In this document: piece after piece, positions 6,220 through 41,301 of the stretch | Layout: every line of letters starts with the position of its first letter | Numbering within the stretch: the stretch's first letter is position 1 | From: Amoebophrya sp. A120 | Lineage: Eukaryota; Protista; Dinoflagellata | NCBI GenBank assembly: GCA_905178155.1 | Contig: CAJINV010000012.1 | Location: 3,086,802-3,150,801, forward strand | DNA length: 64,000 nt | Direction: 5' to 3' | The notes under the pieces: generated by a model | Seen by the model: only the letters and a program-made list of their open reading frames with translations | The model's database searches: none | What the model was told of the DNA's origin: nothing | Made by a program: the position numbers and the translations under genes

Positions 6220-7590
6220 ATGCTGAAGCGGGGCGCTCCGGCGCGCGCTCTGTCGGGCGGTAGAGAGTTTTTGGACTATGCGGGCTTTTGCGACTACGTC
6301 CGACCCCTGCAGTTTTCGTCCGTGCGACAATACAAGGATTGGGTTCATACAGACGCGCGACCGCCAACTGTACCAGTGTGTCCACATATTATGTACAAGA
6401 ATACCGGCTGGACTTCGTGGACAAAGGCCCTCGGGTATGAACGCGAGAAGCACTACAACCGGTTTCGGGAAGTACGTGACTTGCAGCGGTCACGGACGAT
6501 GACCCGGAGCCGTGGCGCAACGACGAACGGCATCGCACTGCAGCAATTTTGCGATGCGATCAAAAGCAAATCCGGCGACTACGACTTCCTGTGGCTGCGT
6601 GGCGGCCGACTGGGATTGCTCTTCCGTCAGCGAGAAGCGGTAGCAGATAAGTGGTGCGCGATTCAAGTCAGGACGGCCGAAGTGCGACGCGAATCAGTCC
6701 ACAAGAAAATGGAGTTCCGATTTCACGATGTTGGCCTGGCTGGGCGCGGTACCGAAATCGGAGTCCTCACGGCGTGTGCGAAAGAAGGGAAAATGCAACT
6801 GCAATCCTACAGCGACATAGAACGAGAAGCATCACACCGAACCCGATTTTACCTCTGGTTGCCCGAGCTGCGCGCGGTCAATGTAAGTGAAATGTTAGGC
6901 ACGCTAGACGAAATGTGGAGCACACTGCCGCGGTTGCCAAGCGCCCATTGGATAAATCTTTCCCTGCAGAACACGCGACTTCGGCTCTCCGCGGTTTTGT
7001 TGTCACAGGTGGTGCAGCATCTGTACATTCCGAGCGCCCTGGAGCTACGCTTCGTGTGTCATCGTGGTGACTTTAATTCCTACGACGCAATCGTGGGGTC
7101 CGCACGAATGATACACCGCACGGCGTGTCTTCTTCCGGGAGATAGCGGTAAAGTGAAGGTCAAGCTAACCCACCCCGTCACCACGGACGCGAACGTTCTC
7201 GAGTCGTTCACCTTAGACAGGAGCGATCCCTTCGATTTTCTGACAGTCTTCGTACGGGAAGGAGACCTGCTCGTCGGGCTTTTCCTTCTGCCGAAGAGTG
7301 CACTCGATGCTGCGGGCGTGCTGTCGCGAAGTCGTGCAGGGGGTCAGTCGTGCGTTGTCCTGAGTCCGCCCGGTAGCCGGCCGACTTTGCCCAAAATCGC
7401 CAAGGTTGTCCCGGACGAGGAGAAGTTTTATATCGATGTTGCAACAGAAAACGCAGCTCCAGCACGAAAAGCTGAAGCAGTGAACCAATTCAAGCGGATC
7501 ATGCAGGAATTTGGCAGTGATCTCGCACAATTGGCATCCGCCGACTCTAGGGAAGATAGCAATCCGGCTTCGACATTCATTTCCGAGTGA
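6220..7590 (+). CDS. Intronless 456-aa protein, paralog of 8085-9443; N-terminal P..P...YK..GW.SW..ALG module and putative degenerate PD-(D/E)xK-like folds
   Basis: Long uninterrupted ORF; shares blocks with its neighbour (FCDYVR/FCEYVR, DF.FLW.RGG..GLLFR, WCAIQVRTAE, ARM.HRT, FTLD..DPFD.L). Fold assignment is inference. Confidence 0.85.
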   Translation: MLKRGAPARALSGGREFLDYAGFCDYVRPLQFSSVRQYKDWVHTDARPPTVPVCPHIMYKNTGWTSWTKALGYEREKHYNRFREVRDLQRSRTMTRSRGATTNGIALQQFCDAIKSKSGDYDFLWLRGGRLGLLFRQREAVADKWCAIQVRTAEVRRESVHKKMEFRFHDVGLAGRGTEIGVLTACAKEGKMQLQSYSDIEREASHRTRFYLWLPELRAVNVSEMLGTLDEMWSTLPRLPSAHWINLSLQNTRLRLSAVLLSQVVQHLYIPSALELRFVCHRGDFNSYDAIVGSARMIHRTACLLPGDSGKVKVKLTHPVTTDANVLESFTLDRSDPFDFLTVFVREGDLLVGLFLLPKSALDAAGVLSRSRAGGQSCVVLSPPGSRPTLPKIAKVVPDEEKFYIDVATENAAPARKAEAVNQFKRIMQEFGSDLAQLASADSREDSNPASTFISE

Positions 7591-8084: not shown

Positions 8085-9443
8085 ATGTTCAAGCGTTTTT
8101 CTCCGTTGCTTGGCCGAGGGCGTCCCAAATGCGCAGACTTCTTGGAATTCGGTGGATTTTGCGAGTACGTCCGGGAGTTGAAATTCCGCGACGTTCTTCA
8201 GTACCAGAACTGGGTCCGCCACGGGTCGTGCCCGAAAATGATACCGCACTGTCCGGACAAAGTGTACAAAGACCGTGGTTGGGTGTCGTGGAGGCACGCG
8301 CTGGGGTATACTCACGAATGCAAGCACAATAAAGTGCAAGACTTCGACGAGTTGCCGCGCGCCGAGACCCTCTGGCGCGGTCGCGGAATGACAAATAATC
8401 GCGTAGCGCAGGAACAGTTTTACAAGCAGATCACCGGCGCAACTTCTGACTTTGAGTTCCTGTGGGTTCGAGGTGGTCTTGCCGGCCTGCTTTTTCGCCG
8501 CACCGGCGCGCCCGACAAAAGATGGTGCGCGATTCAAGTTCGAACGGCGGAGTGTCGGCGGAAAGCACCTTCGGGGGAGATGAAGTTCCGGCTAGTGGAC
8601 GTTGGCGTTCCCGCTACCGACGCAGGAATCCTCGTGGTTGCTCCAAGTGAAAACAAGATGCAGCTCTTTGCCCATTCCGAACTGGAAGCGTGCTGCGAGA
8701 GCAAGACCACAGCGTGCCGAAATTCGATCTGGATGTCGGATATTGCAACAGCGAGTACATGTGACTTGACACGGAATCTGTTTGGACTTTGGGATGTACT
8801 GCCACGATTCGAGTGCGCAGAGTGGATGAGAATTCTGGTCCGCAGTCGGCTGCACCGGTTGCACGCTCTTGTCATTCCGCAGCTGATCGACAGGCTGTAC
8901 AAGCCCAGCGGTCTCCCGTACAGCTTCGTCACGAAATGGGGCAAGTTGAACGCTTCGGACATGATCGTTGGTCCGGCACGCATGTTGCATCGAACGGGCG
9001 TCCACACACGACAGCGAGACGGAAGAATCAAAGTCAAGGCCACGGCAGAAGTGAAAACGGATACGAAAGAGGTGCAGCGATTTACACTGGACACCGGGGA
9101 TCCATTCGATTATCTTGTTGTTCCGGTCCACGTGGACGAAGTCGTCCGTGGCGTCTACGCTTTGCCAAAAGTGGCTCTGGCTTCCGCGAACGTTCTGTCG
9201 CGCAATCGAGTTGGAGGACGGTCCGCATTTACGCTGTACCCCCCTGGATGTGGATCGGATCGGCGAGTGCAGTACCGGGCTATCCCCGGCGAAGAACGGT
9301 TTTACGTGGACATGTCGTCTTCTGGTGTTGAGGTGGAGAAGTTTGCGGGTTTGTTGCGAGACCACAGCGACAGCACTACTGGTGCGTCCGCTTGTCCGGA
9401 GACGCCTTTTGAAGATTCTTCCCAAGACAAAAATGATGAGTAG
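8085..9443 (+). CDS. Intronless 452-aa protein, tandem paralog of 6220-7590
   Basis: Long ORF, colinear similarity to the upstream paralog over nearly its full length. Confidence 0.85.
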   Translation: MFKRFSPLLGRGRPKCADFLEFGGFCEYVRELKFRDVLQYQNWVRHGSCPKMIPHCPDKVYKDRGWVSWRHALGYTHECKHNKVQDFDELPRAETLWRGRGMTNNRVAQEQFYKQITGATSDFEFLWVRGGLAGLLFRRTGAPDKRWCAIQVRTAECRRKAPSGEMKFRLVDVGVPATDAGILVVAPSENKMQLFAHSELEACCESKTTACRNSIWMSDIATASTCDLTRNLFGLWDVLPRFECAEWMRILVRSRLHRLHALVIPQLIDRLYKPSGLPYSFVTKWGKLNASDMIVGPARMLHRTGVHTRQRDGRIKVKATAEVKTDTKEVQRFTLDTGDPFDYLVVPVHVDEVVRGVYALPKVALASANVLSRNRVGGRSAFTLYPPGCGSDRRVQYRAIPGEERFYVDMSSSGVEVEKFAGLLRDHSDSTTGASACPETPFEDSSQDKNDE

Positions 9444-9791
9444 ATGAGACTTCTAACGGTCGCAGTGCAATGAATTCGCGGAATATCATCGGCCTGGAAA
9501 AAACCGGAACTTGCTTTCTCCATCTGGCCGCAATTATAGAGGAGAGTGTTTATTTTTAGAGTCGCCGTCGAGTGAAATTAGAACGGTATTTAAGAATTCC
9601 ATGAATGGTACTAGATACACGCACCGCTGAACGATTCGCCCGTTGTCAACTGCACAAAGCATTATGCACTACTCATAGCCTGTGTTACAGCGTACTATTA
9701 CAGAATGATGTTGACCTTTTGATGCAAAATCTCGAATGCATGCGGCGTTGTAAACTTCTTTGCTAGAAGAAAGCCAAGCCCTTGCGCCATT

Positions 9792-12700
9792 ATGTCCTCC
9801 TGCCTCGCCGCCTGCCGGTCCAGCACGGCGAAATTTTCCCACGGTTTCCACCAAAAACTGTGCACCCAAGCCGTTCTCCGGCCCTGTTTGACCCTCTCGG
9901 TTATCATCTTCACGGTTATTTTCCTGACCACGCTCGCCTTCCTCACGAAAGCCGACTTTCCCGATGAGGATCAGCGATCGAAAGACTCCGTGGACATGTG
10001 GCGGGTCCGGGACAACGAAATTATGCGCACCGAAGACGCGTATTACTCCGCCCTGGGCCACCGAGCGCGGTGGGTTGAGGCAGAATCGCGGTTCGAAACG
10101 GAACAGGAATACATTGACTGGAGGGACAGCAAAATCCGGTACCCGTCTTATCCATTGTAGAAACAACGTCGATCCCCACTCCAATCTTGTCATGCCAAAC
10201 TCGCAGACGCTTCTATCTTTGGTTGCATAGAAGCAGCGCTTACATCTTCTCGACTCTGGGGCGGGGAGAACGACGTGGGTTTTTCCACAGGATTCCATTC
10301 GGCACGACGTGAAAGAACTACTCTTCGGCCCAGCGCCCGTGCAGTCCTCGGAGCTCGGCGGCCGGACGCAGATTTACTATCGGTCGGTGGATCGTAGCCG
10401 CAAGATCTTTACGCCGCAAAATTTGAAGGCGATGTGCCTACTGGAACTATGAAATGCAAAAATGTCTCTGGGTCTGGAAGAATCCGAAATTTGTTATGCT
10501 GTTTTTGCATGACACAGAATGTCTGTCATGGAAGCCCTAGCATCACAGCTTTTTAGAGGCCCTCCTGGTGCCTATTCCGCATGACAAATGCCCTCCACGC
10601 GTAGCACAAACCGGACTCCTCTTGCTGGTCATGCAATACAGAATTTTTTAGAGTGCAAAGTTAGCATCACAAGTTCCAACCTTCCAGACCCAGACATTTT
10701 TGCAATCGATAGGAACGGGTGTGGCACGAGATTGGGAAACTGGGGGACAAAATATGCAGCGCAAGTATAATGTCTGGGTCGGGAAAAAATATTAAAGTGG
10801 AGCTTGTATTGCATGTGTTGCATTTTTAAAAGATCTGTATTGCACAGCCTGCAAATAAGGCTCCGCTTTTGCGGCATACAAAGACGCAGTTTGTCATGCG
10901 TGCTACGCATCAGACTGCGTCAGGTAAACTTGTAATGCTTGGCTGCTGCACTTGAGAGCGCCAGGCTTATTCATACTTTAGCATCACAAGTTTCGTGCAG
11001 GCCCAGACATATGTGCATTTGATACAAAAGTAAATTCTACCAGTCCGGCGCACGGATCTCTCGCATGGTGCAAATCTACGCCGGGAATCTCTTAAATCGG
11101 CCGTTTACGTTTCCGATAACCGATTGCGACGTGACCGCGACCATGTCGCAACAGCAGGTGGACACGATTGTCAACAACGAAATCTACGCGAAGTACAATA
11201 GCGGCGACTACGGGTACGGGTTTTTTCTCGACCGGGATTTTCCAACGAACGGCTACGCCGTGGCGACGCGGTCGGGTTTCTCGGGGTTGGACGGGGAAGA
11301 CGAAATTGGCGGCGAGGGCTTGGACAAGCTGCAAGAATTTCTCGGGGTGGAAGACACCTTTTTCAATCCGAGATTTCTGTACGAGAAATGGTATATTCTG
11401 CCGAACAGCCACGGGCAGGTCGAGGTGCGCATCATGGACCCACTCATGAAAGACGCGGCGGGGCAGGAGCTCGCGCTGGGTCGGGATTTGACGCTCGGAC
11501 TGCCCCTGACTTTCATCGCGGTGTGGGTCGTGGTGTACGTGCACACCGGCTCGCTTTTCTCCGCTTGTCTCGTGCTTCTTTTTGTCCTGTTCGCGATGAT
11601 GGGTGGCTTTATCGGGTACTATCTACTCGCCCGACTGGCTTACTTTGACTCCTTTCTGCAGCTGACGCTGTTCGTGATGCTGGCGGTCGGGGCGGACAAC
11701 TTTTTTGTGATGTGGGAGGCGGTCAAGATTGAAAAAGAGAAAGCGAACGTCGATGGGGAAAAGGAAATGAAAAAGGAGCATGATCTACTTCTTCAAGACC
11801 ACAACTCCTCCCTTATGATCCAAAAGTCGGCGACAGTATTGAACAAGAAGTCCTCGTCTGCTTCATCTTCACCTCAGCACCAGCCACTTCCGAAGGCCAT
11901 TTTGAACACGAAGAGCAGACGAAAAGTTTCGCTCTACCTGGCGCTACTTCGGGCGTCAAAGCGGGCGTCGGCGTCGATGTTTGAGACCAGTTTCACCACC
12001 GCCATGGCGTTTTTTTCCATGGTGATGTCCAAAGTCTCCCCCGTAGCGCACTTCGGGTTTTTCGCGGGCTTTATGATTGTGTCCGGCTACGTGCTAGCCG
12101 TCATCGCCTTTCCGCAGGTCATCGGCCTGTTCTACCTCCGTTTCGAAAAGGGCGGCCGCAGTTTTCCGGAGGTAGAGAACTCTGGTTCCGCGCCGGAGCA
12201 GGAGCAGAACCAAAACAAATTCGGCGCTTCTACTACCGCTGCAGTTTCCGCCTGGGAGGAAGGGGACAAAGACGAGGACAGGAGCCTTGTTGAGACGAGA
12301 AAGCCAGACGCAACACTAGCAGACGCCAGTACAATATCGTACGAAAAAAGTGTTTCACTGTAAGGATTTTGCAAGTTTTGCATCACAAGTTTGTTCTGCA
12401 TGACAGAGAAAATTTGCCATGCGAGATTTCCAAGGGAAAACACCGCTAAAAATCCATTGTCTTGCATGTGTAGCAAGACAAACACTTCTGAGATACATCT
12501 TCTGCATTAAAACAGTTTTTCCTTGCGATATACAACGAAGCCAGACCATGTGGAGGTGGAAGAAACCGTGACCAAGAATCCCGCGCACGAAGTAGCTGTT
12601 ATGTATTGCAAATGTGTCTGGGTCTGGAAAGTCGTGAAGCCTGTATTGCTTGTCTTGGATTTTTCCTGTAAGATCTGTATAATGCATCATGATCAACAAT

Positions 12701-15700
12701 CAAAAGGAGCCCTCTTATTTTGTCATGCACAAGCGCAGGAGTTTCTAATGCGCTCCACAACTACGCAGGAGGGGATGTCCGAAAAATTTGTCATGCTTGG
12801 ATGCAGCTTAGGCAATCTTGGCCACCCAGCTTCCCAAGTTTCCAGACAACATCCAGGGATATTTGCATTCGATAGCTGTAGACGGAGAGGGAGAACACAA
12901 AGAACAAGCGGAGGATCAAGAACATCATCCTGTTGGTAAAACGGTCCCTTCTCGTTTGTACACTTCGATGACAAGTGTGCTGCAGCCGGACACAGTGCAG
13001 AATTCGTTGCACAAGTTTTACAAATTTTTGACCAAGTACGAGAGGGAACTGAGGTTTTGCGCGAGCAAAGGGCAACCTGGTAGTTTTACAACTTCTACAA
13101 CCGCCGTCAGTCCGAGGACCACTCCTTCGGCCTGTTTATCAACTGCAAAAATTTCTGGGTCTGGAAAGTTGGAACTTGTAATTCTGGCTTTACATTCCTG
13201 GGAAATCTGTATTGCATAACCGACAAAAGCCGCAGCCATTGTTGTCATGCAAAAACGCAGTTCCTCATGACATGCGGGCTGCCTATGAGAAAGTGCTCCG
13301 GAAAGTTGTCATGCTCGTCTGCATTTGGAAGTGTTTCCATCATGCACATTTTAGCATCACAAGTTTCCAGACCCAGACATATGTGCATTTGATACTGTTG
13401 CGCACAATACAAGTTCTACCCGATCGCCCTAGCGATCGTCGTGGCAACAACGGCGTACTCCGTGTGGCTGCTGACGCTCATGCTGGACCTGCAGTCGCCG
13501 TCCAAGCCCTTTGAGTTTATGCCCGAGACGCACATGATGGTGGGTTTTCGGAAGGACGGCTAGTATGACACTGCACAACGCGACGTCGCCTTTCCCCTCG
13601 TTTGCACCGCAAAGCATGAGCAGCAATACAAACTGCACACGTGGAACCGGTGCGTCGTAAGTTCTTCATGCGCCGAGTGTTGTAGTAGTACTGTTAACAG
13701 TTGCATCGGGTGTCTTTGTCATGCAAAAGATGTTGCCACAAGACAGCCAGTAGATTTGGGATTTTGGTTTCTGTTTGGATAACAGATTTGAGGGGCAGTA
13801 GGGGACGGTGTCGTGCTCTCGCATAGCTACCAGATGTTTCTCAGTAGCGGGGGGAACCAGCAGTACCGGCCTGTGCACATCGTCTATGGCCTGAATGCCG
13901 ACGAGCCGCTGCAGAACGCGGATGAGTTTTCCAAGTGGTTTATCCTGTGTCAAAACGTCCCCACCCCAGAGTTGTCATGCAGAATTGCAATCACAGGAAA
14001 ATTTGTAATGCGCGTCCCCATGAGAGTCATTTCCAATCGTGTTATGCAATTTGTGACGCTGTAAACAGGAAAGCAGGATCGCTTCGTGATGCGGCGGTCC
14101 TTGCTAACCCGAAGTACAGAACAGAGGAATACTTGTCATGCGTGACTCCCAAAACTTCTGGATCTGTGTTGCAGAATTCCCATCTCTGTGGTGGGGACGT
14201 TTTTACACAGAATATGGTTCCCCTGGAAAACGAACGCGATTCCGAACTTTTACTTCTATCAAATGTAAAAATGTCTGGGTCTGGAAGATTGCAACTTGTG
14301 ATGCTGCATTTGGATGCCTAAAAAATTTGTCTTGCATGCGCAGCAAACGGATTCTAATTTTTGCTACGCGGAGAGGGCATCTGTCATGCGGAATAGGCAT
14401 CAAGAATCCCTCAAAAAACCTGTGATGCTAGGGCATGCATCACAGACATCTTGGCTCATGCAAACCGTGCATGACAAGTCTCAGCATCTTCCAGACCCAG
14501 ACATTTTTACGATCCATAACTTCGATAGCGACCCAGTTTCTGTTGGCGCGAACCCGAACCCCAACGTGGCGCAAACGAGGTCCGTCACGAACGTGCGCGC
14601 CGTGAGCCACGTGCTGCGAGTCGGGGAGCGGCTGAAGCAAACGGCCTGCGCAGACCGGCCGATCTGCAAAAAGCGGCACGTGTCCGGGAAGCTGTTTGTG
14701 CCGGAAGCGATGTCGTGCGGGATCCGGAACATGTTCAAGGTCAACTCGACCGCGCGGGACGATTTGGCCCTACCCAGGTTGGTCGGGGTGAACAACACCC
14801 CGGTGGCGACTCCGGGACCGCTGGGGGTATCACATGCAAAAATGTCTGGGTCCTCTGGAAGATTGCGAGATTTGTCATGCTAGTCTCGCATGACTCTGCA
14901 CTCTGTATTGCGTGGCCACCAAGAGGTCGGTCCTCTTGCCTGTCATGCAAAAGCGCAGTTTCTCATGCGAAATACGCAGCACAGAAACACAAAAAAACTT
15001 GTCATGCTTGGCGGCGCATGATTACAGAGCACTTTATTGTTCACGGACTTGCATCACAAGTTTCCAGACCCAGACATTTTTGCAGTTGAGAGGGGGCGCT
15101 GTATTACAACGTACCGGACGCCGTTCTGTTCCCGCAACCGCCCTATTAACTGCAAATGTGTCTGGGTCGAGAAGGATCCAACTTGTGATGCTGTCTTTGG
15201 ACGCTAAAAAAATCTGTATTGCATAGCCAGCAGGAGGAGTCCCGTTTGTGCTACGTGGAGGGGGCATTTCTCATGCGGGATAAGCATCAGGAGGCCCTGT
15301 AAAAATCTGTGATGCTAGGTCATGCATTACAGGCGTCATTGGTCTTCATGCAGAATATGCATGACAAACCTGGCAATCTTCCAGACCCAGACATATTTGC
15401 ATTTCATACGCCCGCAATCTTCAACTACAGCGACCCGGCCGTTGTGCAGCACCCGTTCTTCCCCGCGCCTAACACATTACCCTATGCATTGCAAATGTGT
15501 CTGGGTCTGGAAGGATGCAACTTGTAATGCTAATTCCGGACTGTGAAAAGATCTGTGTTGCATGATTATCATATACAAGTTGTCCACTTGTTTTGATCAA
15601 TGTGAGAGGAAGTTTCTCATGCAGGGTAGGCATGAGAAAGGTCTCGCCGAATCGGTCATGCTATGTCCTGCATGCAAGCCCTCATGGGTCATGGAAAATC

Positions 15701-17822
15701 TGCATCACAAGTCTTGCAATCTTCCAGACCCAGACATATTTGCATTTGATATACCCTCCGGGGAACCGATTTCCCTCACTAAACCCGCTTTCGTCGCGGA
15801 GGCGCACTACCGCGCGCAAGACTTTTCGTGGTCGGAGCACGCGCGGCGCGCCAGTTTACTCACGGAGGAAATTGCGTTGCGGGAGCGGGAAGCGCAGCAA
15901 GATGCGAACTTGGCGGAGGTGGACTGGGTGGAGCTCTCCGACAGCCGACACCCCGGGGAAACGAATTTTAGCCGAAAGATTTTTACCTTCAACGAGACGT
16001 ATTGGCGGAATATCGACTTTAAACTGTACGCAACCACGGTGTTTGCGCCGGTGCTTTCCGGGGACGGGGCGGGGGTGTCGTTCAAGGAGATGGATAGTCT
16101 TTACCACGCGGTCCAGGACATTTTGGACGAGGAAAACCAACACGCACCCGCGGAACTAGGGAAAGCCGTGCAAATCGGCGACTACGGGTACTACGTACTC
16201 AACCTGGAACTCCGCAACACGCTGTTCGGCGGCCTGCTGTTGATGATCCCGTTGTGCTTCGGCTTGCTCGTGCTCGCCAGCGGGAATGTGATCGTGTCCG
16301 TGCTCGCCATTTACAACGTTTCCTTCCTAACCATGCAGGTGATGGGCTACTTCAAGCTCTTAGGCTGGGAGTTGGGCTTGCTAGAATCCCTCGCGGGAAT
16401 CATCGTGATCGGACTGGCCATGGACTACACCCTGCATTTCTGCCACGTCTTTGTGGAGGCTGGGAAGATAAAGAAAGAACAAGTCGTATCCTGAGCAAAA
16501 ACGTCCCCACCCGCTAGTCAAGATGGGAAATCTGCTAGACAAATCGACAAGCTTTCGCTGTGGCGCATGACAAGTTTCCTCTCTTAGTGTAATCCTGTTT
16601 AGCTAGTTCAGCAGCATCACAGATCTAGCGATGCGTGCTGCTTGGAGCATCACAAATTACGAAACGCGACGAGACATCGCTTCTATCGGGGCTCAGCATG
16701 AGAAACATTTGCAGCATGCAGATTTGCATGACAGCTATGGGGTGGCGAGGTTTTTACATAGGATAAGGCGCATTGTATTCCGCCTCAACGCCGGCGTCAA
16801 ACTTGGTCGAGGACCCCGATACGACCGACACGTTTGAGAAGCCCCGACGGGAGCAGCGCGTAGAGCACGCTTTCTTGTTTATGGGTCCGACCATCTTTGC
16901 CGGTTTTGTCACCTCGGCCTCTGCCGGCCTGTTTCTGATGATCTTTAGCATCACCCCCTTTTTCAAGCAGATGGGCATCGCCATTTTCTTGACCATTTTG
17001 TATTAAAATGAAGAATCTCGATCTCCCCATATCAAAATGGAGATCTGTGATGCGGGATTTGTGTACAGAAATCGGCTACTTTGTCTTGCACTAGAGGACT
17101 GCAGGCAGGTGCGCAGCCTGAGGAGGGGCGTTTTGGTGTAGGTGCCTAGCAAGGCAGCCGGAACCTCTGTAGGCGATTGCAAATTTCTCGCACAAGAACG
17201 CGGCAGAGTCTGTGGACTTGCCTCCGTGCAATACAGAAACGATTAGTGGTTACAAATCAGCATCACAGCTATCCCTTTTTGGTATGGGGAGGGGGGCTCA
17301 TTTTTCCTCACAATATTTTGACTTCGGTTTACATGTCGCTGTGCTACCTGCCCTATCAAATGTAAAAATGTCTGGGTCTGGAAGATTCTGACACTTGTCA
17401 TGCACGTTGTAGCCATGATGTCTGTGATGCATCCCCTAGCAATAAAGATTTTTTGAGGGCTTCTTGATGCGTATTCAGCATGGCAAATGCCTTCTCAGCG
17501 TAGCAAAGACTGCCTTTCTTTTGGTACTCATGCAATACAGATTTTTTTAGAATCCAAAAGCAGCATGACAAGTTGGATTCTTTCAGACCCAGACATTTTT
17601 ACATTTGATATGCCCTGTCTGCTTTTGCTCTTCGGTCCAGAGCGACGCTTCGGGGATTTCAGCTACATGGGGGAGATTGTGGCAGAACGGGTCAGCGGCC
17701 GAGTTTCCACCGTGAGTACGGGTAATGGTACCACTCCTGGAGGTGGTGGTCGTGCACCAGCAGCAGCAGAGGGTGCGTCGCCAGAGGATGCGCAGCCGGA
17801 TGACGCGCAGCCAGCCGGGTAG
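9792..17822 (+). CDS. Dispatched/Patched-family (RND, sterol-sensing domain) multi-pass membrane protein; 15 introners
   Basis: N-terminal TM; IFTPQNLKAMCLLE; SSD-type motifs LAVGADNFFV and TSFTTAMAF; second half IGLAMDYTLH, GPTIFAGFVTS, YLPCLLLLFGPE. Confidence 0.9.
10149..10294. mobile_element. Degenerate, shortened introner, family B
   Basis: Relict AACGTC..CCCCAC / GGGG..GACGT TIR; element+5 removal restores frame YPSRHDVKE. Confidence 0.6.
10448..10711. mobile_element. Introner, family A
   Basis: TIR; DR GGAAC. Confidence 0.9.
10753..11024. mobile_element. Introner, family A
   Basis: TIR; DR CAAAA. Confidence 0.88.
12335..12530. mobile_element. Introner, family F
   Basis: TIR TATCGTACGAAAAAAGTGTTT / AAACAGTTTTTCCTTGCGATA; DR TACAA. 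Confidence 0.85.
12600..12874. mobile_element. Introner, family A
   Basis: TIR; DR GCTGT. Confidence 0.9.
13137..13394. mobile_element. Introner, family A
   Basis: TIR; DR CTGTT. Confidence 0.9.
13564..13825. mobile_element. Introner, family G (diverged)
   Basis: TIR TATGA..TGCACAAC-like; DR GCTAG/GCTAC. Confidence 0.8.
13941..14214. mobile_element. Introner, family B
   Basis: TIR; DR TGGTT. Confidence 0.9.
14257..14518. mobile_element. Introner, family A
   Basis: TIR; DR ACTTC. Confidence 0.9.
14828..15091. mobile_element. Introner, family A (ends AGA)
   Basis: TIR; DR GGGGG. Confidence 0.88.
15144..15408. mobile_element. Introner, family A
   Basis: TIR; DR CGCCC. Confidence 0.9.
15483..15751. 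mobile_element. Introner, family A
   Basis: TIR; DR TACCC. Confidence 0.9.
16487..16765. mobile_element. Introner, family B
   Basis: TIR; DR AGTCG/AGGCG. Confidence 0.88.
17001..17315. mobile_element. Introner, family C
   Basis: TIR; DR TTTTG. Confidence 0.88.
17354..17610. mobile_element. Introner, family A
   Basis: TIR; DR TGCCC. Confidence 0.92.
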
Positions 17823-18093
17823 TAGAAGGGGGAGGAAAATGCGTGTTTCTGGTGATGGAGGAAAGAAATAAAAGAGAAATTTACTATTCGCGTTTTTTGT
17901 TTCGTACCCTGCGCGCTGTGCTAAGGAAAAGGAAGTAGAGAAGAACTGCGCGACCTCGTCGTGCTGACCGCCGCCGGCTTTTGGATCTAGTCTTAGTTGT
18001 CGGCACGGGGTCGGTAGTACGCCAAGGGGTATTACCGAAAAAGTCCTGATTTAATTGTACCGACGGTTATTTTATTCGATGAGTGTGATGTGG

Positions 18094-18115
18094 ATCATCA
18101 TCATCATCATCATCA
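18094..18115. repeat. (ATC)7 microsatellite
   Basis: Seen directly. Confidence 0.85.
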
Positions 18116-18660
18116 GTACAACAAAAAAACCTGTAGCGCGTGTTGTTTATGCATGGTACAAGATTGCGTTTTTCTTCTTGCACAAAAACGAGAAGATGGA
18201 TGGTCTAAATTGCTTTGAAGAAAAGCAATCTTCTTCTATCACTACAGAGGTACGTAGTGGAAGTACTAGACTAGAGTTGCTAGTGGAATACTGCAATGTA
18301 CAGGTAGTAGAAGTTGTACTCGAAAAATCGGTTGCACGACGGCATCATTTGCAATTTCTTCCTGCGCGTGCAGGGGCGCACCGTAACAATCACACTCACT
18401 TCCATCGGTCCCGAGCAGCCTGTGTCATTTTCCTGCTCGCTGCTCTCGCATCCATTTTCGGTTTAGGAGCCTCCTGTGGAAATCTAATTGGTTTCATCGG
18501 AAGATTGGTGAATCTGCTTCTGCACTGGAGGGAAGGTAGCATAGATAACCTTATTGCAGCCAAATGTCACTACTAGAAGTTTTGATGCACCACCGAGCGA
18601 GACGATCTGAGAATAGATTGATACTGGAGAATGGGCGGCTTGTGATCTTGAAGCAGAAAG

Positions 18661-20401
18661 TATCCCACCAAAAAAATCGATCATACTCATACAGGGCCGC
18701 AAAAAGCCCAAAAATCGCTATTTTTTCAATTTTTTATTTTCAAAAATTTTTCGCGGTGTCCGGCAGACCCGGGCAGCCGCTTCTGTTTTGGTGCTCTTAT
18801 GACGTAAATATTGCGCGGCCTATCTTCTTTGGCTGCTTGGAGTAGTTTCGCTACTCCAGCAACTAAGAGGCGGCAGCAGGCCGAGTAGCTATGAGGAGGC
18901 GGATGCTACTCCAATAGGGCCGTCAGACAAACCACAAAGAAGATGGCGCAACTACTGGAGACCAATACCATTGCGCGGCCCTGTCCCATTGATTTCGTTG
19001 GCGTTATGGCCATGGGCCTGCATTTCTGGGCACATGCCGAGGAGCCCGATACCCCGCCTTGGCCTTACTTACCACCAGCTCCTCGTCGGGATTTTAACTG
19101 CTTTGCCCCCCCCCAGACCGGCAACGCCGTCCAATCTGGAGAGACTGCTCGCGCACTTTCTGGCCCCAGATGAGCTAAGGCAAAGTGGGCACATGATTGG
19201 CCTCGAAAAGACGGCCATTGCATGCGGATCAAAAAAATCGATCATATCACTTTCGGGCGCCGGAGACCTCTTCCGGGCCGCCCCATCAGCGGAGTCGATT
19301 TGCTGAACTTCCACAGCTGAATTTGGCAAGATTTTCGCACTTTTTCGAAGTTCGAAAAAATGCCGATTTTCGATATGATCGATCGGCCTCAAAAAATGGC
19401 CGTTAGCTCGGTCCCAAAAAAATAGATCATACATTTTTGCGAGTATGATTAATGCCATTTTTTCACTTTTTTCAAATTTTCTAAAAGAAAATGGCAGCTT
19501 TTGGCATATGATCAATTTTTTTGGGCCGCTGCTATGGTGAAAAATTTGCAAATTTACAGTTTTTGAAAAAACGCCAATCGCGGTGCTACGGCGCAGGTCA
19601 GCAAATATGATCGATTCCGGACTCAGCTCGTGCTAAAAAAAATTGATCATACCGCAAAAGCTGTCAGCTTTTGCCGATTTTGCCACGTTTTGTTGGCCGT
19701 TTTTCCACGTTCTCCGCACTGAAAATTGCTGTTTGAGATGGCCTTTTTTGGTCCCGTCCCTGGTCGATCGCTCTGGCGGCGATCCTGTGGAGGCGTGCCA
19801 GAGGATGCCACCGGAGGTCTGCCCAAGAACCCCAGAACGCCTCAAAATAGAAGGCCCAGCCCTTAGGCTTTTGCGCGGCCCCCAGCACAACCCATGCATG
19901 TTTGTCGCAGCACCGTCTCAGCGGGGCTAGAGCTGGCATCCTGAAGGCCATTCCTTTCCTCCTGGGCCGAGCATGTGCCAGGCTGCGTGGATCCTTTGCC
20001 TCCATCCATGTGACAGGCTTGGGAGCGGGAGTTATGAGAGACAAGCGCCCGACGGCGGGGCCGGTAGGTGAGGAGGGGCTTGGACCGGTAAGAGGGGGCC
20101 GGCAAGAGGCCGAAGAGCAGAGCCAGGACAATTGTCGCGGGCGACATATCCGCGCCAGTCGCCTCCTCGTAGCTAGTTGAACTACTACAGGCAGCCAGTC
20201 CAGAGCTCAGCAACGTTGCCGCCCAAGCAGAATGCTCCAGGCCTTACCTCCAAGCCATGCAAATTTTCCGCCGAAAAAGAAAAATCGCTGCCGAAATACA
20301 GGATTTTTGTTAAAAAAGCGCAGGCTTTTTTCAAAAAAGTAGCATTTTTTGTGTCTTGAATTCGGCCAAATATGAGTATGATCGATTTTTTTAGTGCGAT
20401 A
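18661..20401. mobile_element. 1741-bp intergenic TIR element with TAT...ATA ends (long relative of the introners)
   Basis: Left end TATCCCACCAAAAAAATCGATCATACTCATA; reverse complement of right end TATCGCACTAAAAAAATCGATCATACTCATA; DR GAAAG at 18656-18660 and 20402-20406. Confidence 0.9.
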
Positions 20402-20724
20402 GAAAGTACACGACGTAAAAGACCTCACTTGCAACCACCAGACTGCTGTACTTTTTTTAACCACGTGTGCGTGACAAAGAGTTTGTACTTTCCAGGTTTT
20501 GGTAGTATCAACAGTTTTATTGGCTCGAAATAGATAGAAGCCGTAGTCTACTTCACCAGCGCACGAAAATCAGTTTACACTTTATTTCCCCTTTCACACA
20601 AGCACGTTTCCGACGATTTACGCGACTTTTCCGGCGGCTGTCTGTCAGTCGTGAGAGACTGTTTTCTTGAAAAGAACAACGCATTGGGAATAATATAAGA
20701 GCTACTTATAAACAAAAGGGGAAA

Positions 20725-23700
20725 ATGGAGCATCAAAGGCAGGAACAAACAGAGGAGAGGGGGATGAACAGCAAACCTGATGCGGGCGAACAGCAGATCT
20801 ACTACTTCGGGTATGGGTCGAATATGGGCGCCAAGTCGCTGAAGGGCCGAAAATATCAAATGCAAATATGTCTGGGCCTGGAAGGTTGCAAGGGTCTTTA
20901 TCATGCACATTTTGCATGAGTGATGAGGTCTGTGATGCGCAGGTCCTAGCATCACAGATTTTTTGAGAGAGCTTCTTGATGCTTAGTTATCACGCATGAG
21001 AAATGTTGCCCTCTTCGCGTACCAAGAACTGAACTCCTCTGACTGCTCATGCAAGACAAATATTTGATAGAATCCGCAGGCAGCATCACAAGTTTTGCAT
21101 TTCCTTAAAGACCGAGACATATTTGCGCGCGATACAAAAATCCTTCGGGACTGCGAACCCGACCGAGAAAACGGGGGCTGCGTATCCCGTGTAAAAACGT
21201 CCCCACCCCATAGTCATGTTGGGAACTCAGCAACACAAATCCACAAGTTCTGGGCGTCACGCGTGACAGATTTTGCGCTGTATTGGGGTGCAGGTTAGCA
21301 AGGACAGCCGCATCCCAAATCCATTTTTCTGTCGTGTATACAGCATTACATATGCCAAAACACAACTGAAGGTGCCTTTCACAGGGAGGCGCATTCCAAG
21401 TATTCCTGCGCTTGCAAAAAAGAAAATAATCTGCATGACAACTTTGGGGTGGGGACGTTTTTGTTTTTCCTTAGGATACTGAGTCGTGGTTCCCTACGAT
21501 ACGAATCTTTATCAAGTGCAAATATTTCTGGGTTCGGAAGAAAATAGACATCTATGCTGCAGTTTTTGCACCTGCATAAAGCAAGGAGGTCTACTAGTAT
21601 GCACATGGAGCAGCAACATGAGAAGTTCTGCGAAGTAGGCGTCTTCTTGATATGCACTCCTGCACCATGAAAAATCCCCACTCCTAGAGACAAGAGGAAT
21701 CGCACTTCTGTTCTGGACTACGCAAGAACACAGATTTTGTTTGGCTGTTCCAGAAGCAGAATTGGCATCACAGGTCTGCACCTTTGCAGGAGACCCAGCT
21801 ATGTTTGCAACGTATAAGAATATTCGTGATGGTCATCTACCCGATTTGATTCCCGCCGGAGGTACGACAGCATCAAAAGCGAAGGACGGTGACGGAGTTG
21901 CAGCTGCAACTGCAACAAGCGACCCTGACACACAACTTCTATCAAATGTAAAAATGTCTGGGTCTGGAAAATTAAAACTTGTCATGCTAAATCCGAATAA
22001 TGCAAACATCTGTGTTGCATGAGTGCCAAAAGCTGTCCACTTTCGACCAAGTTGGGAGGGAGTTTCTCATGCGGGATAGGCATGGCAAGGACCTCACAGA
22101 CTCTGTCATGCTAAAACCTGCATTCCAGACCTTATGGGACATGGAAAATCTGCATGACAAATCTCGCAATCTTCCAGACCCAGACAGTTTTACATTTGAT
22201 AACTTCCTAAGCCAACCCATCGGACGGTGCCAGCCATCCTGAGGAACTACCAGTTGATATCAAAATGTGAAAAATTCCCCCTCTTCAGAGGCATCAACTG
22301 GAAATCTGTGACGCGGGATTTGTGTAAGTACTTACACCGTTCAGCTTTGTCATGCAGTAGAGCACTTCTGCAGGCAGATGCCCACCCTGGGTAGAGCGGG
22401 GTTTATTTGCCGTAGGCGTGTAGTATGGTAGACGCTCCTTTCCCTGTAGGCCTAACAGCATCGCAAACGGCGCAAATTATAATGCAGCTGACCCTTTTGA
22501 TTTGCCCTCTGGCAACATCAAGACAGTCATATCAAATCGACGGCGCAAATCTGCAAATCCGTGCTGTTTCCAGTCGAGGAGGGGGGATAATTTTTCCGCA
22601 CGATAGTTGACCTTTGACCTGCCCGGCTTCCCCCTGGCCGAGCTATCAAATGCAAATATGTCTGGGTCTGGAAACTTGTGATGCAAATCTACGAATTGTG
22701 GGCGCAGTACAATATCAGCCCAGCATGACAAGTTTTTGCGCTGCTGTGTATTTCGTTTTTCGCATGACAAACTGCGTTTTTGCGCGACAGGCAAGAGGCC
22801 CTTTTCCTGCTTCTGTATCACGGTCTTGCTTCCAGACAAAACACCAGACATATTTGCAATTGATGCGAGCCCTCCTGGGCCAACATCCAGCGGGCGGAGA
22901 ACGCGGAAACGCAAGGAGTGTTGATTACGCTTTGCAAATATATCATCTGGGTCTGGACTTGTGATGCGAAACTTCCAGGACAAAAAGATCTCAGATCTTT
23001 CTGTGATGCATGACGAGGAGTAATGGCGAGATTGATACTTCTCGTAGTGGAGGGCAGTTCGTGGTTCTAGTTCTAGACGCAACTGCGGTCGCAAGAAGCC
23101 ACGGAATAATTGTCATGCTGGTAAAAGAAGCGCCGCACAAGGGTACTAGCTTGTGCGTCGTACGAAGAGAGTAGACCACCATCCCATGACAAATTCGAAT
23201 TGGCTGTGTCTTTCCGGACGCCCAGGGACGATATTTGCTTTCGATACTGATTATCAAATGCAAAAATGTCTGAGTCTGGAAGAGTGCAAACTTGTCATGC
23301 ATGTTTTCCATGCCCCCCGAGGTCTGCAATGCAGCACCTAGCATGAGAGGTTCTGCGAAGTCTCTATCATGTCTGTCCTGCATGACAAACTGCCGCCAAT
23401 CTTGTTCAAGCGTGGACACCTTTGGGTGATCATGCAACACAAATTTTTGCACTATCCAGACTTAGCATGACAAGTTGCATCCTTCCAGACCCAGACATTT
23501 TTGCAACGCATACTGATCGAGATGACCCGAAAAGACTTCGACGAGAAAATTGTGGCCACAGAGCACCAGGCGTATCAGGTCATCGAGGTCTCCTGTGAGG
23601 TCGATGTTGAGAACAATCCAGTTTTCTTATCATTTGTAAAACTTTTCGCACCCCAGAGTTGTCATGCAGATTCGCAATGACGGGAACATTTGTAATGCGC

Positions 23701-26135
23701 ATCTCCATGAGAGGCGTTTCTAGTCTTGTTTTGGCATTTCTAATGCTGTAACCAGGATGAGCAGATGGATTTGTGATGCGTTTGTCCCTGCTAACCTGTA
23801 CCACACTGCGGACTGCAATTTGTGATGTGTGAGTCCCAAAACTTCTACGCTTGTGTTGCAAATAAATCCCCTTCTTGACTCTGAGGTGGGCGGGACGTTT
23901 TTACTTAGCATATTTCTCCGCCTACCTTGGCGGAAAAAAACGCATCCCCGCACTCACCCTGCACGTGCCAGAGCCGTGGAAGGTCCGGGACTTGTCCTGG
24001 CGCACGGGAGCCTGCAGCTTGCGGCGCTGCAGGGACAGAGCGGCGAGGAAGAAAGATGAAAAGCCTGCTTGTTGTACGGAGGTGGAAAATATTAAAACAG
24101 GCGATGCTGCCGGTGGTCCACCAGGTAAAGAAGAAGCTACGGGCACGACAGCAAGCAAGAAGACAAAAAAAGACGGAAAAGTCGTTCCGACCTACATCCC
24201 GCCGGCGGAACGGTACTTGAAGTTGCTGCAAATGGGCGCCTACGCATTGCAAATATGTCTGCTTCTGGAAGTAGGATGCAAGCTTGTGATGCTCTTTGTC
24301 TGTGGTCATACAAAAATCTGTCTTGCGCGAGAGGTAAAAGTTGCGCTTTTGTTAAGTACCTTGATAAAGCCTCTGATGCTACGCTATGCCTTCCGGACCT
24401 CCTAGCTATTGAGACAAGAGCTGCATGGCAAGAAATTCGGTACCTTGCCAGACCCAGACACATTTGCATTTGATAGCGCCGAGGAGCAGGGACTGAGTAA
24501 AGAGTACCAGGAGTTTCTGTATCAGACAAAATAAGCACAAATTGTAGCTTGGTACAAAGTTTTCCGGGCCAAGGAGGACGACGAAAATCAAAATCGCATA
24601 GAATTATGAAATTACTGCGCACGGGATTGCTCCACCTGCATCTTGCATCGGGCAACTACTTCTTGGTGTAGGCATAAGGACGCATAGTGAAGATCACTTT
24701 TGTAGTACTACAGTAATTGTCCCAAAAATGGGAGCAAAATCTTTTGCCATGAAAAGTTTATCTTTGGACAGCAGTGCCACAACTTCCTCCCGGGCCCCGG
24801 TCTGCTTTGGTTCTAGAAAGTCATTTTTTCCCTGCATACGCCGCAACAGTTGCCCTCTCTCGAAGATTCCACGAGCGGAAAAATCTTCGGTACCTGCCTC
24901 CGCGTCTTTTGGGGGAAGATTTTTTGCACAGCGCTCTTCCTGCTCGTGCAGGGAATTTTGCTGTATGGAAGGGGAAACAAGCTGTGTTAGTGCAAGTCTG
25001 TGATGCGATTCAACATGCAGAGCAATTGTAGAATTATTAGGTGGCCAACTTCTACGCGCCGGTCTTCATGCATTGCACAGTCCTCCCAACCGTGTTTGGG
25101 TTTCCGTTTCCCTCTTCTATCTGCGCATGGCAAGGAGGTTTTTTTGTCATGCCCGACAGTGGTCAACAGATTCGTAATGCTGTTTGTTCCCATACAAATT
25201 GGATGCTAACACAGTTTTTTTCTTGGATATTTATCGCACGCTGCGCATTCCCATTAAGTACTCCTGGGCGGTGCTTGTTTATTCGATAAAGACCTATCCT
25301 GAGTTGTAAAAACGTTTCCATCCCATACTTATTTGTCATGGAAATGTGCAAGCGTAAAATCTTTGTCATACGCAGGAGCGTTTTTTTAATGCCCTCTGGC
25401 AGTTTGTCAAGCTAGATTCTGGGTAAGCTGATCGAGATTGACTAGGGATGCAGCTGCAGTTGCTCCGCACGATTACACTGGAAGACCACACTTGTCATAC
25501 GTGAGTCGTCCCAAAACTTCTGGATTCGTGTTGCAAAGTGCCCATCGCCATTTTGACTCTGGGGTGGGGACGTTTTTACTCAGGATAATACCCACCCGCT
25601 CTTCTGGGTCGTGATGCTTTGCCTTCGGTACTGCCCGAAAAGATTTTTGTACGCAGACAACTACGGCCGGGGAAAGGATGTAACCGTCTGTCTGTCCTTC
25701 CCAGAGTTTGTGGAGGTATCGAAAGGAAAAATCCCCCCTCCCCCTATCAAAACGAAATTTCTGATGCTGGATTTGTCTACACAAATCCGTGTATTGCTGG
25801 AGAGCACTGCAGGCCCATACTACGTGTGAGCAGAGAGGTTTTTGCCTCGGCACTTAGCATGAAAAACATCCGCGCTGTAGGCCCAACAGCATGTCAAACC
25901 GCCTGCACAATGCGGCGGCTGTCTGTGGAGTTGCCTTCTTGCAAGACAGACACGATTTGTGGCCACAAATCAGCATCACAAATTTCCACCAAAAATATAC
26001 CTTTTTAGTATGGGGAGGGGGGATTTTTCCTTTTGAGAGGAGGTGCGAAAAAACTACGAATGGCAAAAAGTGGAAATGGTCGAAGAAGATGTAGGGTCAG
26101 TTGGTGCAGGGATGGCGGGAAAAAAGAGCCAGTGA
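20725..26135 (+). CDS. Gamma-glutamylcyclotransferase (GGCT/AIG2-like, resembling fungal GliK-type); at least 12 introners; exons at 24520-25230 uncertain
   Basis: Spliced motifs YYFGYGSNM, PAILRNYQLTFDLPGFPLAEPSWANI, GVLIEMTRKDF, PAERYLKLLQMGAEEQGLSKEYQEFL. Confidence 0.85.
20854..21134. mobile_element. Introner, family A
   Basis: TIR; DR GAAAA/CAAAA. Confidence 0.88.
21183..21478. mobile_element. Introner, family B
   Basis: TIR; DR CTGCG/CTGAG. Confidence 0.88.
21510..21816. mobile_element. Introner, family A (diverged)
   Basis: TIR relict; DR decayed ATCTT/AGAAT; frame restored. Confidence 0.75.
21940..22201. mobile_element. Introner, family A
   Basis: TIR; DR ACTTC. Confidence 0.92.
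22258..22605. mobile_element. Introner, family C (diverged)
   Basis: TIR; DR GTTGA. Confidence 0.85.
22644..22865. mobile_element. Introner, family A (ends ATG)
   Basis: TIR; DR CGAGC. Confidence 0.88.
22926..23246. mobile_element. Introner, family A (older member of a twin)
   Basis: Starts TAC; DR TTGAT/CTGAT. Confidence 0.8.
23252..23512. mobile_element. Introner, family A (younger member of a twin)
   Basis: TIR; DR CTGAT/CTGAT. Confidence 0.9.
23628..23912. mobile_element. Introner, family B
   Basis: TIR; DR TTTCT. Confidence 0.88.
24241..24475. mobile_element. Introner, family A
   Basis: Starts TAC; DR GCGCC. Confidence 0.88.
25295..25587. mobile_element. Introner, family B
   Basis: TIR; DR AGACC/ATACC. 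Confidence 0.85.
25717..26038. mobile_element. Introner, family C (ends AGA)
   Basis: TIR; DR GGAGG. Confidence 0.9.
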
Positions 26136-27110
26136 GATTGCAGCTGAGTATAGAGAAAGAGAAATCAAATGACTTTCCAACTTTTTTTTCTCCTCACGCG
26201 CTATTTACGGGTTTCTAATATAATTCATTCTAACCCGATCGCTCCCTCTCGCCATTTTGTCCGCCCGGTCCTTTCAGTCGACGGTGCTTCTTCGGAATTC
26301 CTGTTGCGTGATGTTCTATACTGCACCCGCTTTGATAGATGACATGATCTGGTCTTCCTTCTGTCCTTGAAAACGTATGTTTTTTGCAACACCTTCTGCG
26401 GCATGACGATAGATTTCCGTCTTCTGTGCATAGAAGGCGGTAGAAGTTCCGGCACCTTCTTGTTTCCGTGGATGTCACGTCACGACTACTATCATGTCAG
26501 TACTCTCGTCTCCCCGTCCATAAGATAAATCGCCAAAATGCTGGGGAAGTACGACAAGCACTTGAAGATTGGAAAGAGCAATCGGCGCTGCTTAAAGTAG
26601 ACGACGAAATATTTATAAGTAAGTACATATAGGTACTTGATTGCTGATGAATCATGGCTAGTATTGCTCGCGATGAAGTTGTTCGCACTGCGTCTGGAGG
26701 AAAAGAATTTGAGTTCGTTGCTTCTGCAAAACTCGTCAAGGAAACTGCGCTCGTCAAGAGTGTGACTCGCCAGTCATTTGTCAGAAAAGTCTAGGACACG
26801 GTGACAATTTTTTTTTGCGTACGTCGTTTCGCTCTCTGTCTCGTGGGACGAAAGTTTATAGCGAAGACCCATCCTATGTTCATCTTGTACGGTCACGAAT
26901 TCTACTATCGTGCTAGCACTCTTTACGTATAGGCGTAGCATGAAGAAGTAGTCGTGTGTGAAGTATTAACAAGTTTCTACCTCGTCGTCCAACGAGAACG
27001 ACTACTTCAGAGCGTATTTTTTATCCCACCGTTCCTGTGTAGTATCTCTGTCTCTCTCAGCACAGCAGGGAATTAGGCAAAGATGAATAGAGTTAGAGTA
27101 AGTAGTACTT

Positions 27111-40995: not shown

Positions 40996-41301
40996 TACGC
41001 ATCACGAAAGTTGTCCCTTGATGTCTGGAATAAGCTTGTGACGCTGAAGATAAGTACCTGGATAATTGCAAAGTGGCTGGCCGCCGTACGGCACAGCAGC
41101 TGCATGAGAAGTTTTGCGACGCTTGCTGCCGATTCATTCGTAAAAGAACTACGCATGGCTGCAATAAAGAAACTACCATATAATCGATCCAGCATGACAA
41201 AGAGGCTAGCCGCTCCGGTACTTCACGCATCACAGTTCTTGTGGTCCTTCAAATATTGCACCACAAATCCAGACGTCCAGGGAAGATATTTGCCATGCAT
41301 A
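40996..41301. mobile_element. Degenerate family A element just upstream of the ubiquilin ATG (probable 5' UTR intron)
   Basis: Relict GATGTCTGGAA / TCCAGACGTCCAGGG..ATTTGCCATGCATA ends; DR decayed. Confidence 0.6.

What the first reader, a model, noticed from the sequence alone, without database searches (positions are those of the whole stretch)
13559..21483. Stop codons in diverged direct repeats fix the splice register at 4|1 (intron = N-TAT...ATA-NNNN)
Seen: at 13559/13826 the DR is GCTAG/GCTAC; keeping the upstream 5th base makes an in-frame TAG, so the junction lies before base 5. At 21178/21479 the DR is CTGCG/CTGAG; keeping the downstream 4th base makes an in-frame TGA, so the junction lies after base 4. 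Old copies decay in downstream bases 1-4 while keeping base 5 (ATCTT/AGAAT, CGTCT/CCATT, TGCAG/CAAAG, TTCCG/CCCCG). Inference: cuts fall 1 nt 5' and 4 nt 3' of the TIR stem, an asymmetric ruler. This assumes one register for all families and the standard code. It agrees with my recollection of 4-nt DRs reported for strain A120.
Basis: partly seen in the sequence, partly recalled or inferred. Interest (0 to 1): 0.8.

Follow-up and report, generated by a model that had tools for sequence, protein, structure and literature searches.

The report
Fixed cut rule for hairpin introns
In a marine parasite whose introns are mostly jumping-element hairpins without the usual GT-AG ends, spliced transcripts place the cuts one base before and four bases after the hairpin, which likely means that its splicing machine reads a shortened start signal and counts to the end instead of looking for AG.

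Summary
The window holds at least 82 TAT...ATA hairpin elements with 5-nt direct repeats (DR): the Amoebophrya A120-type introners of Farhat 2021, whose Fig. 3 legend calls the intron border unknown. Spliced contigs from one sample show 15 of 15 listed joints removing element + 5 nt. Six diverged DRs bound the junction and overlap only at 4|1; one (24962->25234) fixes it exactly. So intron = N-TAT...ATA-NNNN. 'Base 5 is kept' is not supported: it diverges about as often as bases 1-4, and then the intron-side copy is mostly G (15 of 18), giving GT. In 305 strand-oriented elements of a second assembly, intron +2 T/+3 A deviate once and their stem partners 11 times, so the 5' end is likely read as sequence, not only as a stem. 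Best reading: a spliceosome with relaxed G+1 and no AG rule; rival: a Euglena-like stem-and-spacer machinery. The elements are known; I did not find the register stated in print (7 searches), although Table S4 hints at it. The scan used similar logic on other genomes (GT-AT introns); I found no note on this one.

The parts
13563..13829 (+). Intron under 4|1 (G-TAT...ATA-GCTA); element 13564-13825, DR GCTAG 13559-13563 / GCTAC 13826-13830
   Evidence: joint 13558->13826, 4 letters ambiguous, skip 267 = element+5; TAG at j=5
21182..21482 (+). Predicted intron (G-TAT...ATA-CTGA); element 21183-21478, DR CTGCG/CTGAG
   Evidence: TGA in frame for j=0-3; net removal fits contig length; the joint itself was not printed
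24963..25233 (+). Intron with exactly fixed borders (G-TAT...ATA-TTTA); element 24964-25229, DR TGCTG/TTTAT
   Evidence: joint 24962->25234, 0 letters ambiguous, in X1 and X2; j=4
24519..24842 (+). Intron; element 24520-24838, DR TTCTG/CGCCG
   Evidence: joint 24518->24843, 1 letter ambiguous: j=4-5
10148..10298 (+). Intron; element 10149-10294 (right end ATT), DR CGTCT/CCATT
   Evidence: contig piece ends at 10147 and record arithmetic 179=179: j=4-5
16486..16769 (+). Intron; element 16487-16765, DR AGTCG/AGGCG
   Evidence: piece ends at 16484, arithmetic 260=260: j=3-5
25294..25591 (+). Intron; element 25295-25587, DR AGACC/ATACC
   Evidence: joint 25291->25590, 3 letters ambiguous: j=2-5
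21509..21820 (+). Predicted intron; element 21510-21816, DR ATCTT/AGAAT
   Evidence: net removal only
22925..23516 (+). Two back-to-back elements (22926-23246, 23252-23512) sharing one DR copy; under 4|1 the exon between them has zero length
   Evidence: ORF stays open; contig length fits removal of both
9792..17822 (+). Host gene 1: Patched/sterol-sensing-domain protein, 1365 aa, 15 introner introns
   Evidence: Pfam PF02460 and PF12349 on exon 11032-12330
20725..26110 (+). Host gene 2: open for 432 codons to at least 26110 after removal of 14 elements; N-terminal YFGYGSN motif recalls gamma-glutamylcyclotransferases (recalled; no Pfam hit on the 42-aa exon)
   Evidence: X1 record 2 spans it by length arithmetic

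Best explanation
These are transposon-derived hairpin introns that spliced transcripts show to be cut one base before the opening TAT and four bases after the closing ATA, likely by a spliceosome that has relaxed the G at +1 and dropped the AG rule. SHOWN: insertion leaves a 5-nt duplication, splicing removes element + 5 nt, and the mRNA keeps bases 1-4 of the upstream copy and base 5 of the downstream copy, so the original coding sequence is restored wherever the element lands. INFERRED: the element's own TAT supplies donor positions +2 to +4 (N|U-A-U, against canonical G-U-A/G). +1 comes from the target site, any base works there, and G is favoured over time. The terminal stem likely brings the 3' end next to the donor, and the acceptor is placed by distance (4 nt past the stem, 7 nt from the first A of ATA) with no dinucleotide rule. 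Whether that A is a branch point is untested.
For: Register: 15 of 15 printed joints skip element+5; four of them plus two piece-derived ones are informative, and they overlap only at j=4. Sequence reading at the donor: in 305 transcript-oriented elements from both genomic strands, terminal-triplet deviations are +2:0, +3:1, +4:9, -7:3, -6:4, -5:7, so +2/+3 against their pairing partners is 1 vs 11, p=0.006. In the window, 9 deviations fall at +4 (5), -5 (2) and -6 (2), none at +2, +3 or -7. Wobble could excuse the +2/-5 asymmetry (5 of 7 are A>G) but not +3/-6: pair-breaking changes at -6 occur, two of them in introns seen spliced (14828, 25717), while wobble-keeping A+3>G was not seen. Drift to GT: where base 5 differs and the exon copy is not G, the intron copy is G in 6 of 6 (window) and 9 of 12 (second assembly; p=0.025 vs 45 of 110), together 15 of 18 vs 68 of 173, p=3.6e-4, best of 40 cells. 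AG at DR positions 3-4 occurs in 29 of 273 perfect DRs vs 6.9% background (weak). The exactly mapped intron 24963-25233 does not pair its ends in the predicted fold. Published Table S4: all 9 top A120 motifs are NT-NN and all 9 A25 motifs are TT-NN, and A25 repeats start TTA, so both strains would have +2 T/+3 A (my inference). A120 is reported to keep U2, U4, U5, U6 and 83 of 89 spliceosomal proteins, with U1 not detected.
Against: No lariat, branch point or snRNA pairing was tested. Only one junction is fixed exactly by RNA, all RNA evidence comes from two genes and two runs of one sample whose RNA status is a guess, and contigs hide minor forms. The +1>G signal weakens to 8 of 12 vs 42 of 102 (p=0.085) under symmetric detection, and was 3 of 6 on one strand. 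G at +1 is also lost (5 cases, 1). The -2>A drift did not replicate alone (4 of 8, p=0.19). The -7 A is not invariant (3 deviations). No G enrichment at +5 on the donor side (TATG left-only 51 vs right-only 58). All 16 terminal dinucleotides occur at the acceptor, which is hard for a spliceosome. Second-assembly elements were not checked against RNA, and their strands are calls from codon use (benchmark: 63 right, 0 wrong, 19 uncalled of 82).
Confidence: 0.5

Rival explanations
1. Same 4|1 register, but cut by a non-spliceosomal stem-and-spacer machinery (endonuclease plus ligase, or a dedicated complex as proposed for Euglena), which measures 1 nt and 4 nt from the paired TAT/ATA.
For: Ends form strong duplexes (median -32.6 vs -10.5 kcal/mol for random pairs). 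No dinucleotide rule at either end. U1 not detected in A120. Euglena offers an experimentally shown precedent, N3-CDG...CH'G-N5-6, and such a machinery could also read some bases.
Against: It does not predict drift of +1 specifically to G, conserved bases matching canonical +2 U/+3 A, or exact splicing of an old copy whose ends do not pair in the predicted fold.
Confidence: 0.3
2. 4|1 is only the dominant or a family-limited register; some families or minor isoforms cut elsewhere in the repeat (for example canonical GT-AG at 13564, +3 nt).
For: Contigs cannot show minor forms, and only 1 of 6 informative junctions is exact. The paper's Fig. [quoted passage not shown] 21 of the window's 27 diverged DRs have no RNA-read junction.
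Against: The six informative introns have visibly different ends and inner sequences, and none excludes j=4. Perfect DRs make borders look variable to aligners, as described for Euglena 'slidable' introns.
Confidence: 0.15
3. The joints are reverse-transcription template switches or assembly artefacts at direct repeats, not splicing.
For: Hairpins flanked by direct repeats are the classic substrate for template switching (established knowledge). X1/X2 are only guessed to be RNA.
Against: The 24962->25234 joint has no ambiguous letter (the DR copies share 1 of 5 bases). All 15 elements of gene 1 are missing from one contig and leave a 1365-aa ORF.
Confidence: 0.03

Closest known systems
Amoebophrya A120 introner elements (Farhat et al. 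2021, PMC7789003; read: abstract, sections 10-12, 16, 32, 35, passages of the supplement's text; no figures seen)
   Same: TAT-starting inverted repeats, short direct repeats, repeated families of mostly about 250-320 nt, non-canonical ends; top published motifs all NT-NN.
   Different: The paper gives DRs of 3-5 nt and variable or unknown borders. Here the DR is uniformly 5 nt, the border is fixed at 4|1, and +2 T/+3 A are constrained on the transcript strand. Fig. S19-S23, which I could not see, may already show part of this.
Euglena nonconventional introns, 5'-N3CDG-/-CH'GN5-6|R (Nomura et al. 2025, PMC12501133; read: abstract, sections 8 and 12, passages)
   Same: Paired terminal triplets with unequal spacers to the cuts (short 5', longer 3'); likely MITE origin; borders resolved by using non-slidable introns.
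   Different: Triplet TAT/ATA at +2/-7, spacers 1 and 4, no purine needed at the first exon base, conserved bases coincide with the canonical donor; unrelated lineage.
Non-canonical U2 introns of Fritillaria (via review PMC11282704 passages and the search listing of PMC13326754; Henriet 2019 not read)
   Same: Transposon-derived introns with non-GT/AG ends handled by an adapted spliceosome.
   Different: Fritillaria has preferred ends (AG-AC, AG-AT); here neither terminal dinucleotide is fixed.
Micromonas/Aureococcus introners (via PMC11282704 and PMC7789003 passages)
   Same: TIR plus target duplication, with part of the duplication used to build splice sites.
   Different: Those give canonical GT-AG; here only 4 of 82 do.

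Membership tests
Amoebophrya A120-type introner element | Terminal inverted repeats starting TAT | tested here: met
   78 of 80 left ends TAT, 76 of 80 right ends ATA
Amoebophrya A120-type introner element | 3-5 nt direct repeats at the borders | tested here: met
   exactly 5 nt
Amoebophrya A120-type introner element | Repeated families, removed from transcripts | tested here: met
Amoebophrya A120-type introner element | Window comes from strain A120 itself | not tested
   no genome held; the assignment rests on the element signature in PMC7789003
Canonical U2 spliceosomal intron | GT (or GC) at the 5' end | tested here: not met
   GT 30, CT 21, AT 16, TT 15 of 82; GT 104 of 305
Canonical U2 spliceosomal intron | AG at the 3' end | tested here: not met
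   9 of 82; 27 of 305
Canonical U2 spliceosomal intron | Lariat with branch-point A; snRNA pairing | not testable with these tools
   no raw reads cover the genes; no genome held to find snRNAs
Euglena nonconventional intron | CDG/CH'G motif with 3-nt and 5-6-nt spacers | tested here: not met
   TAT/ATA with 1-nt and 4-nt spacers
Euglena nonconventional intron | Purine as first base of the 3' exon | tested here: not met
   C at 13830 and T at 25234 are retained; A+G is 0.59 of perfect DRs vs 0.56 background
Euglena nonconventional intron | Terminal hairpin joining both ends | tested here: met
   duplex energies; holds for 13564 but not in the predicted fold of 24964
Non-autonomous TIR DNA transposon (MITE) | TIRs and fixed-length target duplication | tested here: met
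Non-autonomous TIR DNA transposon (MITE) | Autonomous partner with transposase | not tested
   no search run; PMC7789003 found none in A120, PMC12130899 (passages) reports an integrase-like family

The most novel reading that the evidence does not exclude
Amoebophrya runs a U1-less spliceosome with a rewritten code: the donor is N|UA and the acceptor is found by counting four bases past a hairpin, with no AG. Any transposon ending TAT...ATA with a 5-nt duplication is then a perfect intron at birth. This would be a second, independent stem-and-spacer code beside Euglena's, and one run by the spliceosome itself.
Probability: 0.35. Interest if true: 0.85.

Novelty: new variant of a known kind. 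Interest (0 to 1): 0.62.

Why it matters
The elements are published, but their borders are marked unknown and the splicing mechanism is posed as an open question (PMC7789003; 65% of A120 introns are non-canonical). A fixed N-TAT...ATA-N4 rule would turn the reported 'broad variability of splice motifs' into one rule seen through target-site letters and aligner sliding. It would let tens of thousands of junctions be annotated correctly. It also says where to look for the mechanism: U+2/A+3, the 4-nt spacer and the A at -7. It explains why insertion is harmless at any site and offers a direct comparison with Euglena's spacer code.

Tried and rejected
RNA junctions were read for 9600-26400 only, and 16 of the 31 joints there were not printed. 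Diverged DRs outside that stretch have no RNA test. No listed holder is on record as RNA. The homologue search with the 42-aa first exon of gene 2 found nothing. No whole genome is held. No Rfam match in the window. Stop-codon test in the second assembly: only 1 of 65 diverged DRs gave a constraint (j not 0), uninformative. Codon-likelihood test of which copy is exonic: inconclusive (positions 1-4 p=0.20/0.14; position 5 p=0.64/0.48; only position 4 leaned upstream, 17 of 22). Apparent loss of T from the 3' spacer in the window (20 vs 5) did not replicate (15 vs 13): dropped. 'Invariant -7 A', suggested by the window, was not upheld. An orphan-end scan at 16 of 24 matches was too noisy to use. 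Rows dropped: 123 of 412 elements unoriented and 5 oriented ones with fewer than 2 DR matches; 103 of 414 unoriented and 6 with fewer than 2 matches. In the window, candidates outside genes or without family-like ends (such as 5797, 19507, 39986) were left out by hand. 150 of the 153 loci were in the script box, and the scan covered 19 of 64 parts of the collection. Literature: 7 searches gave no paper stating the register; subscription papers, theses and the supplement's figures are not covered. PMC12005148, PMC11453091, PMC12130899, PMC12621601 and PMC13326754 were seen as passages only.
Full report
What is there. The window is eukaryotic, about 50% GC, with + strand genes broken by repeated elements, mostly 250-320 nt, that begin TAT and end ATA. 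I curated 80 elements, later 82. They match the description of Amoebrophrya A120 introners in PMC7789003; the strain itself was not verified, because no genome is held. The flanking direct repeat is exactly 5 nt: 69-73 of 80 identical at positions 1-5, 27 of 80 at position 0 and 15 of 80 at position 6; 53 perfect, 27 diverged. A pattern scan of metagenome contigs gave 153 loci from a second assembly with the same families (best matches about 70-95% identical). In them 412 elements detected without reference to the DR show the same 5-nt window.

All six pairs exist. Removing element + 5 nt gives a 1365-aa Patched-like ORF at 9792-17822 (Pfam) and a stretch of 432 open codons from 20725. At 13564, TAG arises only if upstream base 5 is kept; at 21183, TGA arises for j=0-3. 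One Amoebophrya species reads stops as sense (PMC12005148, passages), but 1365 codons without a stop show the standard code here. Two weaknesses: at 13564 a canonical GT-AG cut would also be in frame (+3 nt), and 'base 5 is kept' fails. Mismatches are 11, 11, 9, 10, 7 by position in the window and 17, 20, 12, 22, 17 in the second assembly.

RNA test. Contigs of runs X1 and X2 (one sample, guessed to be RNA, evidently spliced) were laid on 9600-26400. All 15 printed joints (of 31) skip element + 5 nt. Diverged DRs bound j: 13564 0-4 (and no +3 form), 24520 4-5, 24964 exactly 4, 25295 2-5. From piece ends with record arithmetic (179=179, 260=260), 10149 gives 4-5 and 16487 gives 3-5. The only common value is 4. 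The joint at 21183 was not printed, but record 2's length predicts a start at 20600 and a bin depth of 6.78 against 6.77 observed, so the transcript crosses all 14 elements of gene 2 with the expected net removal. The two raw-read runs did not cover the genes, so minor registers are untested. No RNA junction was obtained for the rest of the window.

What the ends say about mechanism. Under 4|1 the intron starts NT (GT 30, CT 21, AT 16, TT 15 of 82) and ends in any of 16 dinucleotides; 4 of 82 are GT-AG. (a) Where base 5 differs, the upstream (intron +1) copy is G in 6 of 7 in the window. In the second assembly, oriented by coding strand (289 of 412; benchmark 63 right, 0 wrong, 19 uncalled of 82), it is 9 of 12 against 45 of 110 elsewhere (p=0.025). 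Pooled, it is 15 of 18 vs 68 of 173, p=3.6e-4, the top cell of 40. With symmetric detection it is 8 of 12 vs 42 of 102, p=0.085: probably real, but modest. (b) Terminal-triplet deviations among 305 oriented elements are +2:0, +3:1, +4:9, -7:3, -6:4, -5:7. The window shows the same pattern in 9 cases, although its list was partly found by requiring TA. The asymmetry follows the transcript strand, so it acts on RNA and not on transposition. G-U wobble can explain +2/-5, but pair-breaking changes at -6 and +4 are tolerated while A+3>G was not seen. (c) The ends usually pair strongly (13564), but the one exactly mapped intron does not pair its ends in the predicted fold. (d) Table S4 of PMC7789003 lists only NT-NN motifs as predominant in A120 and only TT-NN in A25, whose repeats start TTA. 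My inference is that both strains share +2 T/+3 A. Against a spliceosomal reading: no acceptor rule; -2>A drift unreplicated; -7 A not invariant; no donor-side +5 G bias; U1 not detected in A120.

Reading. Shown: 5-nt duplication, removal of element + 5, and a 4|1 junction in the six informative introns. Inferred (0.85): the register is general. Inferred (0.5): a spliceosome reads N|UA and places the acceptor by distance from the hairpin end. Rival (0.3): a dedicated stem-and-spacer machinery as proposed for Euglena, where N3-CDG...CH'G-N5-6|R was shown by knock-in (PMC12501133).

Novelty. The elements, their repeats and their transposon origin are known. The paper marks the border as unknown or variable (Fig. 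3 legend). Seven searches found no statement of the register, but Fig. S19-S23 could not be seen, the S23 legend places the repeats 1-5 nt from the splice sites, and Table S4 already points to NT. The principle of unequal spacers is established in Euglena. Earlier notes of this scan apply similar logic to GT-AT introns of other genomes; none came up for this genome or for Amoebophrya with these words. Verdict: a new variant of a known kind, a usable rule that makes an openly stated question testable. Interest 0.62.

Noticed in passing
window 22926-23512 and 34691-36499: Twice a younger element sits exactly at the 3' splice point of an older one, sharing its already diverged DR copy, so under 4|1 the exon between them has zero length and removal must be ordered or recursive (2 of 82).
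   Followed up: partly
window 35031-36403: A roughly 1.36-kb insert inside the element 34883-36499, flanked by an 18-nt duplication (35031-35048, 36386-36403; read by eye), with short charged ORFs; possibly another mobile element.
   Followed up: no
L062:1-54 vs window 16040-16093: 54 nt identical to the Patched-like exon, followed in L062 by an element where the window has none; the far flank does not match, so this is a polymorphic insertion joined chimerically or a misassembly.
   Followed up: partly
window 6220-7590 and 8085-9443: Two neighbouring intronless, similar-looking ORFs (456 and 452 aa); the N-terminal P..P..Y...GW..W..ALG stretch recalls an integrase repeat unit (recalled, not tested).
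   Followed up: no
window 40996-41301: Element upstream of a ubiquitin-like gene's coding start with TAC left end and flanks ACCAA/CACCA, which match better shifted by one base; outside coding sequence the spacing may be freer.
   Followed up: no
window 30847-31114 and 63699-63750: Element fragments with only one recognisable end, each running into a similar GC-rich sequence; the first lies next to the roughly 99-nt tandem array at 31378-32166.
   Followed up: no
window 26181: The X1 contig has one extra T here and X2 does not; in a T run near the end of gene 2, possibly an assembly or contig error.
   Followed up: no
window 21940: Three raw reads of run X8 match this element's left end with a foreign flank: the same family at another site.
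   Followed up: no
window 34020-34274 and 37657-37902: Ordinary GT-AG introns coexist with six or more introners in one FkbM-like methyltransferase gene, so both kinds must be removed from one transcript.
   Followed up: partly
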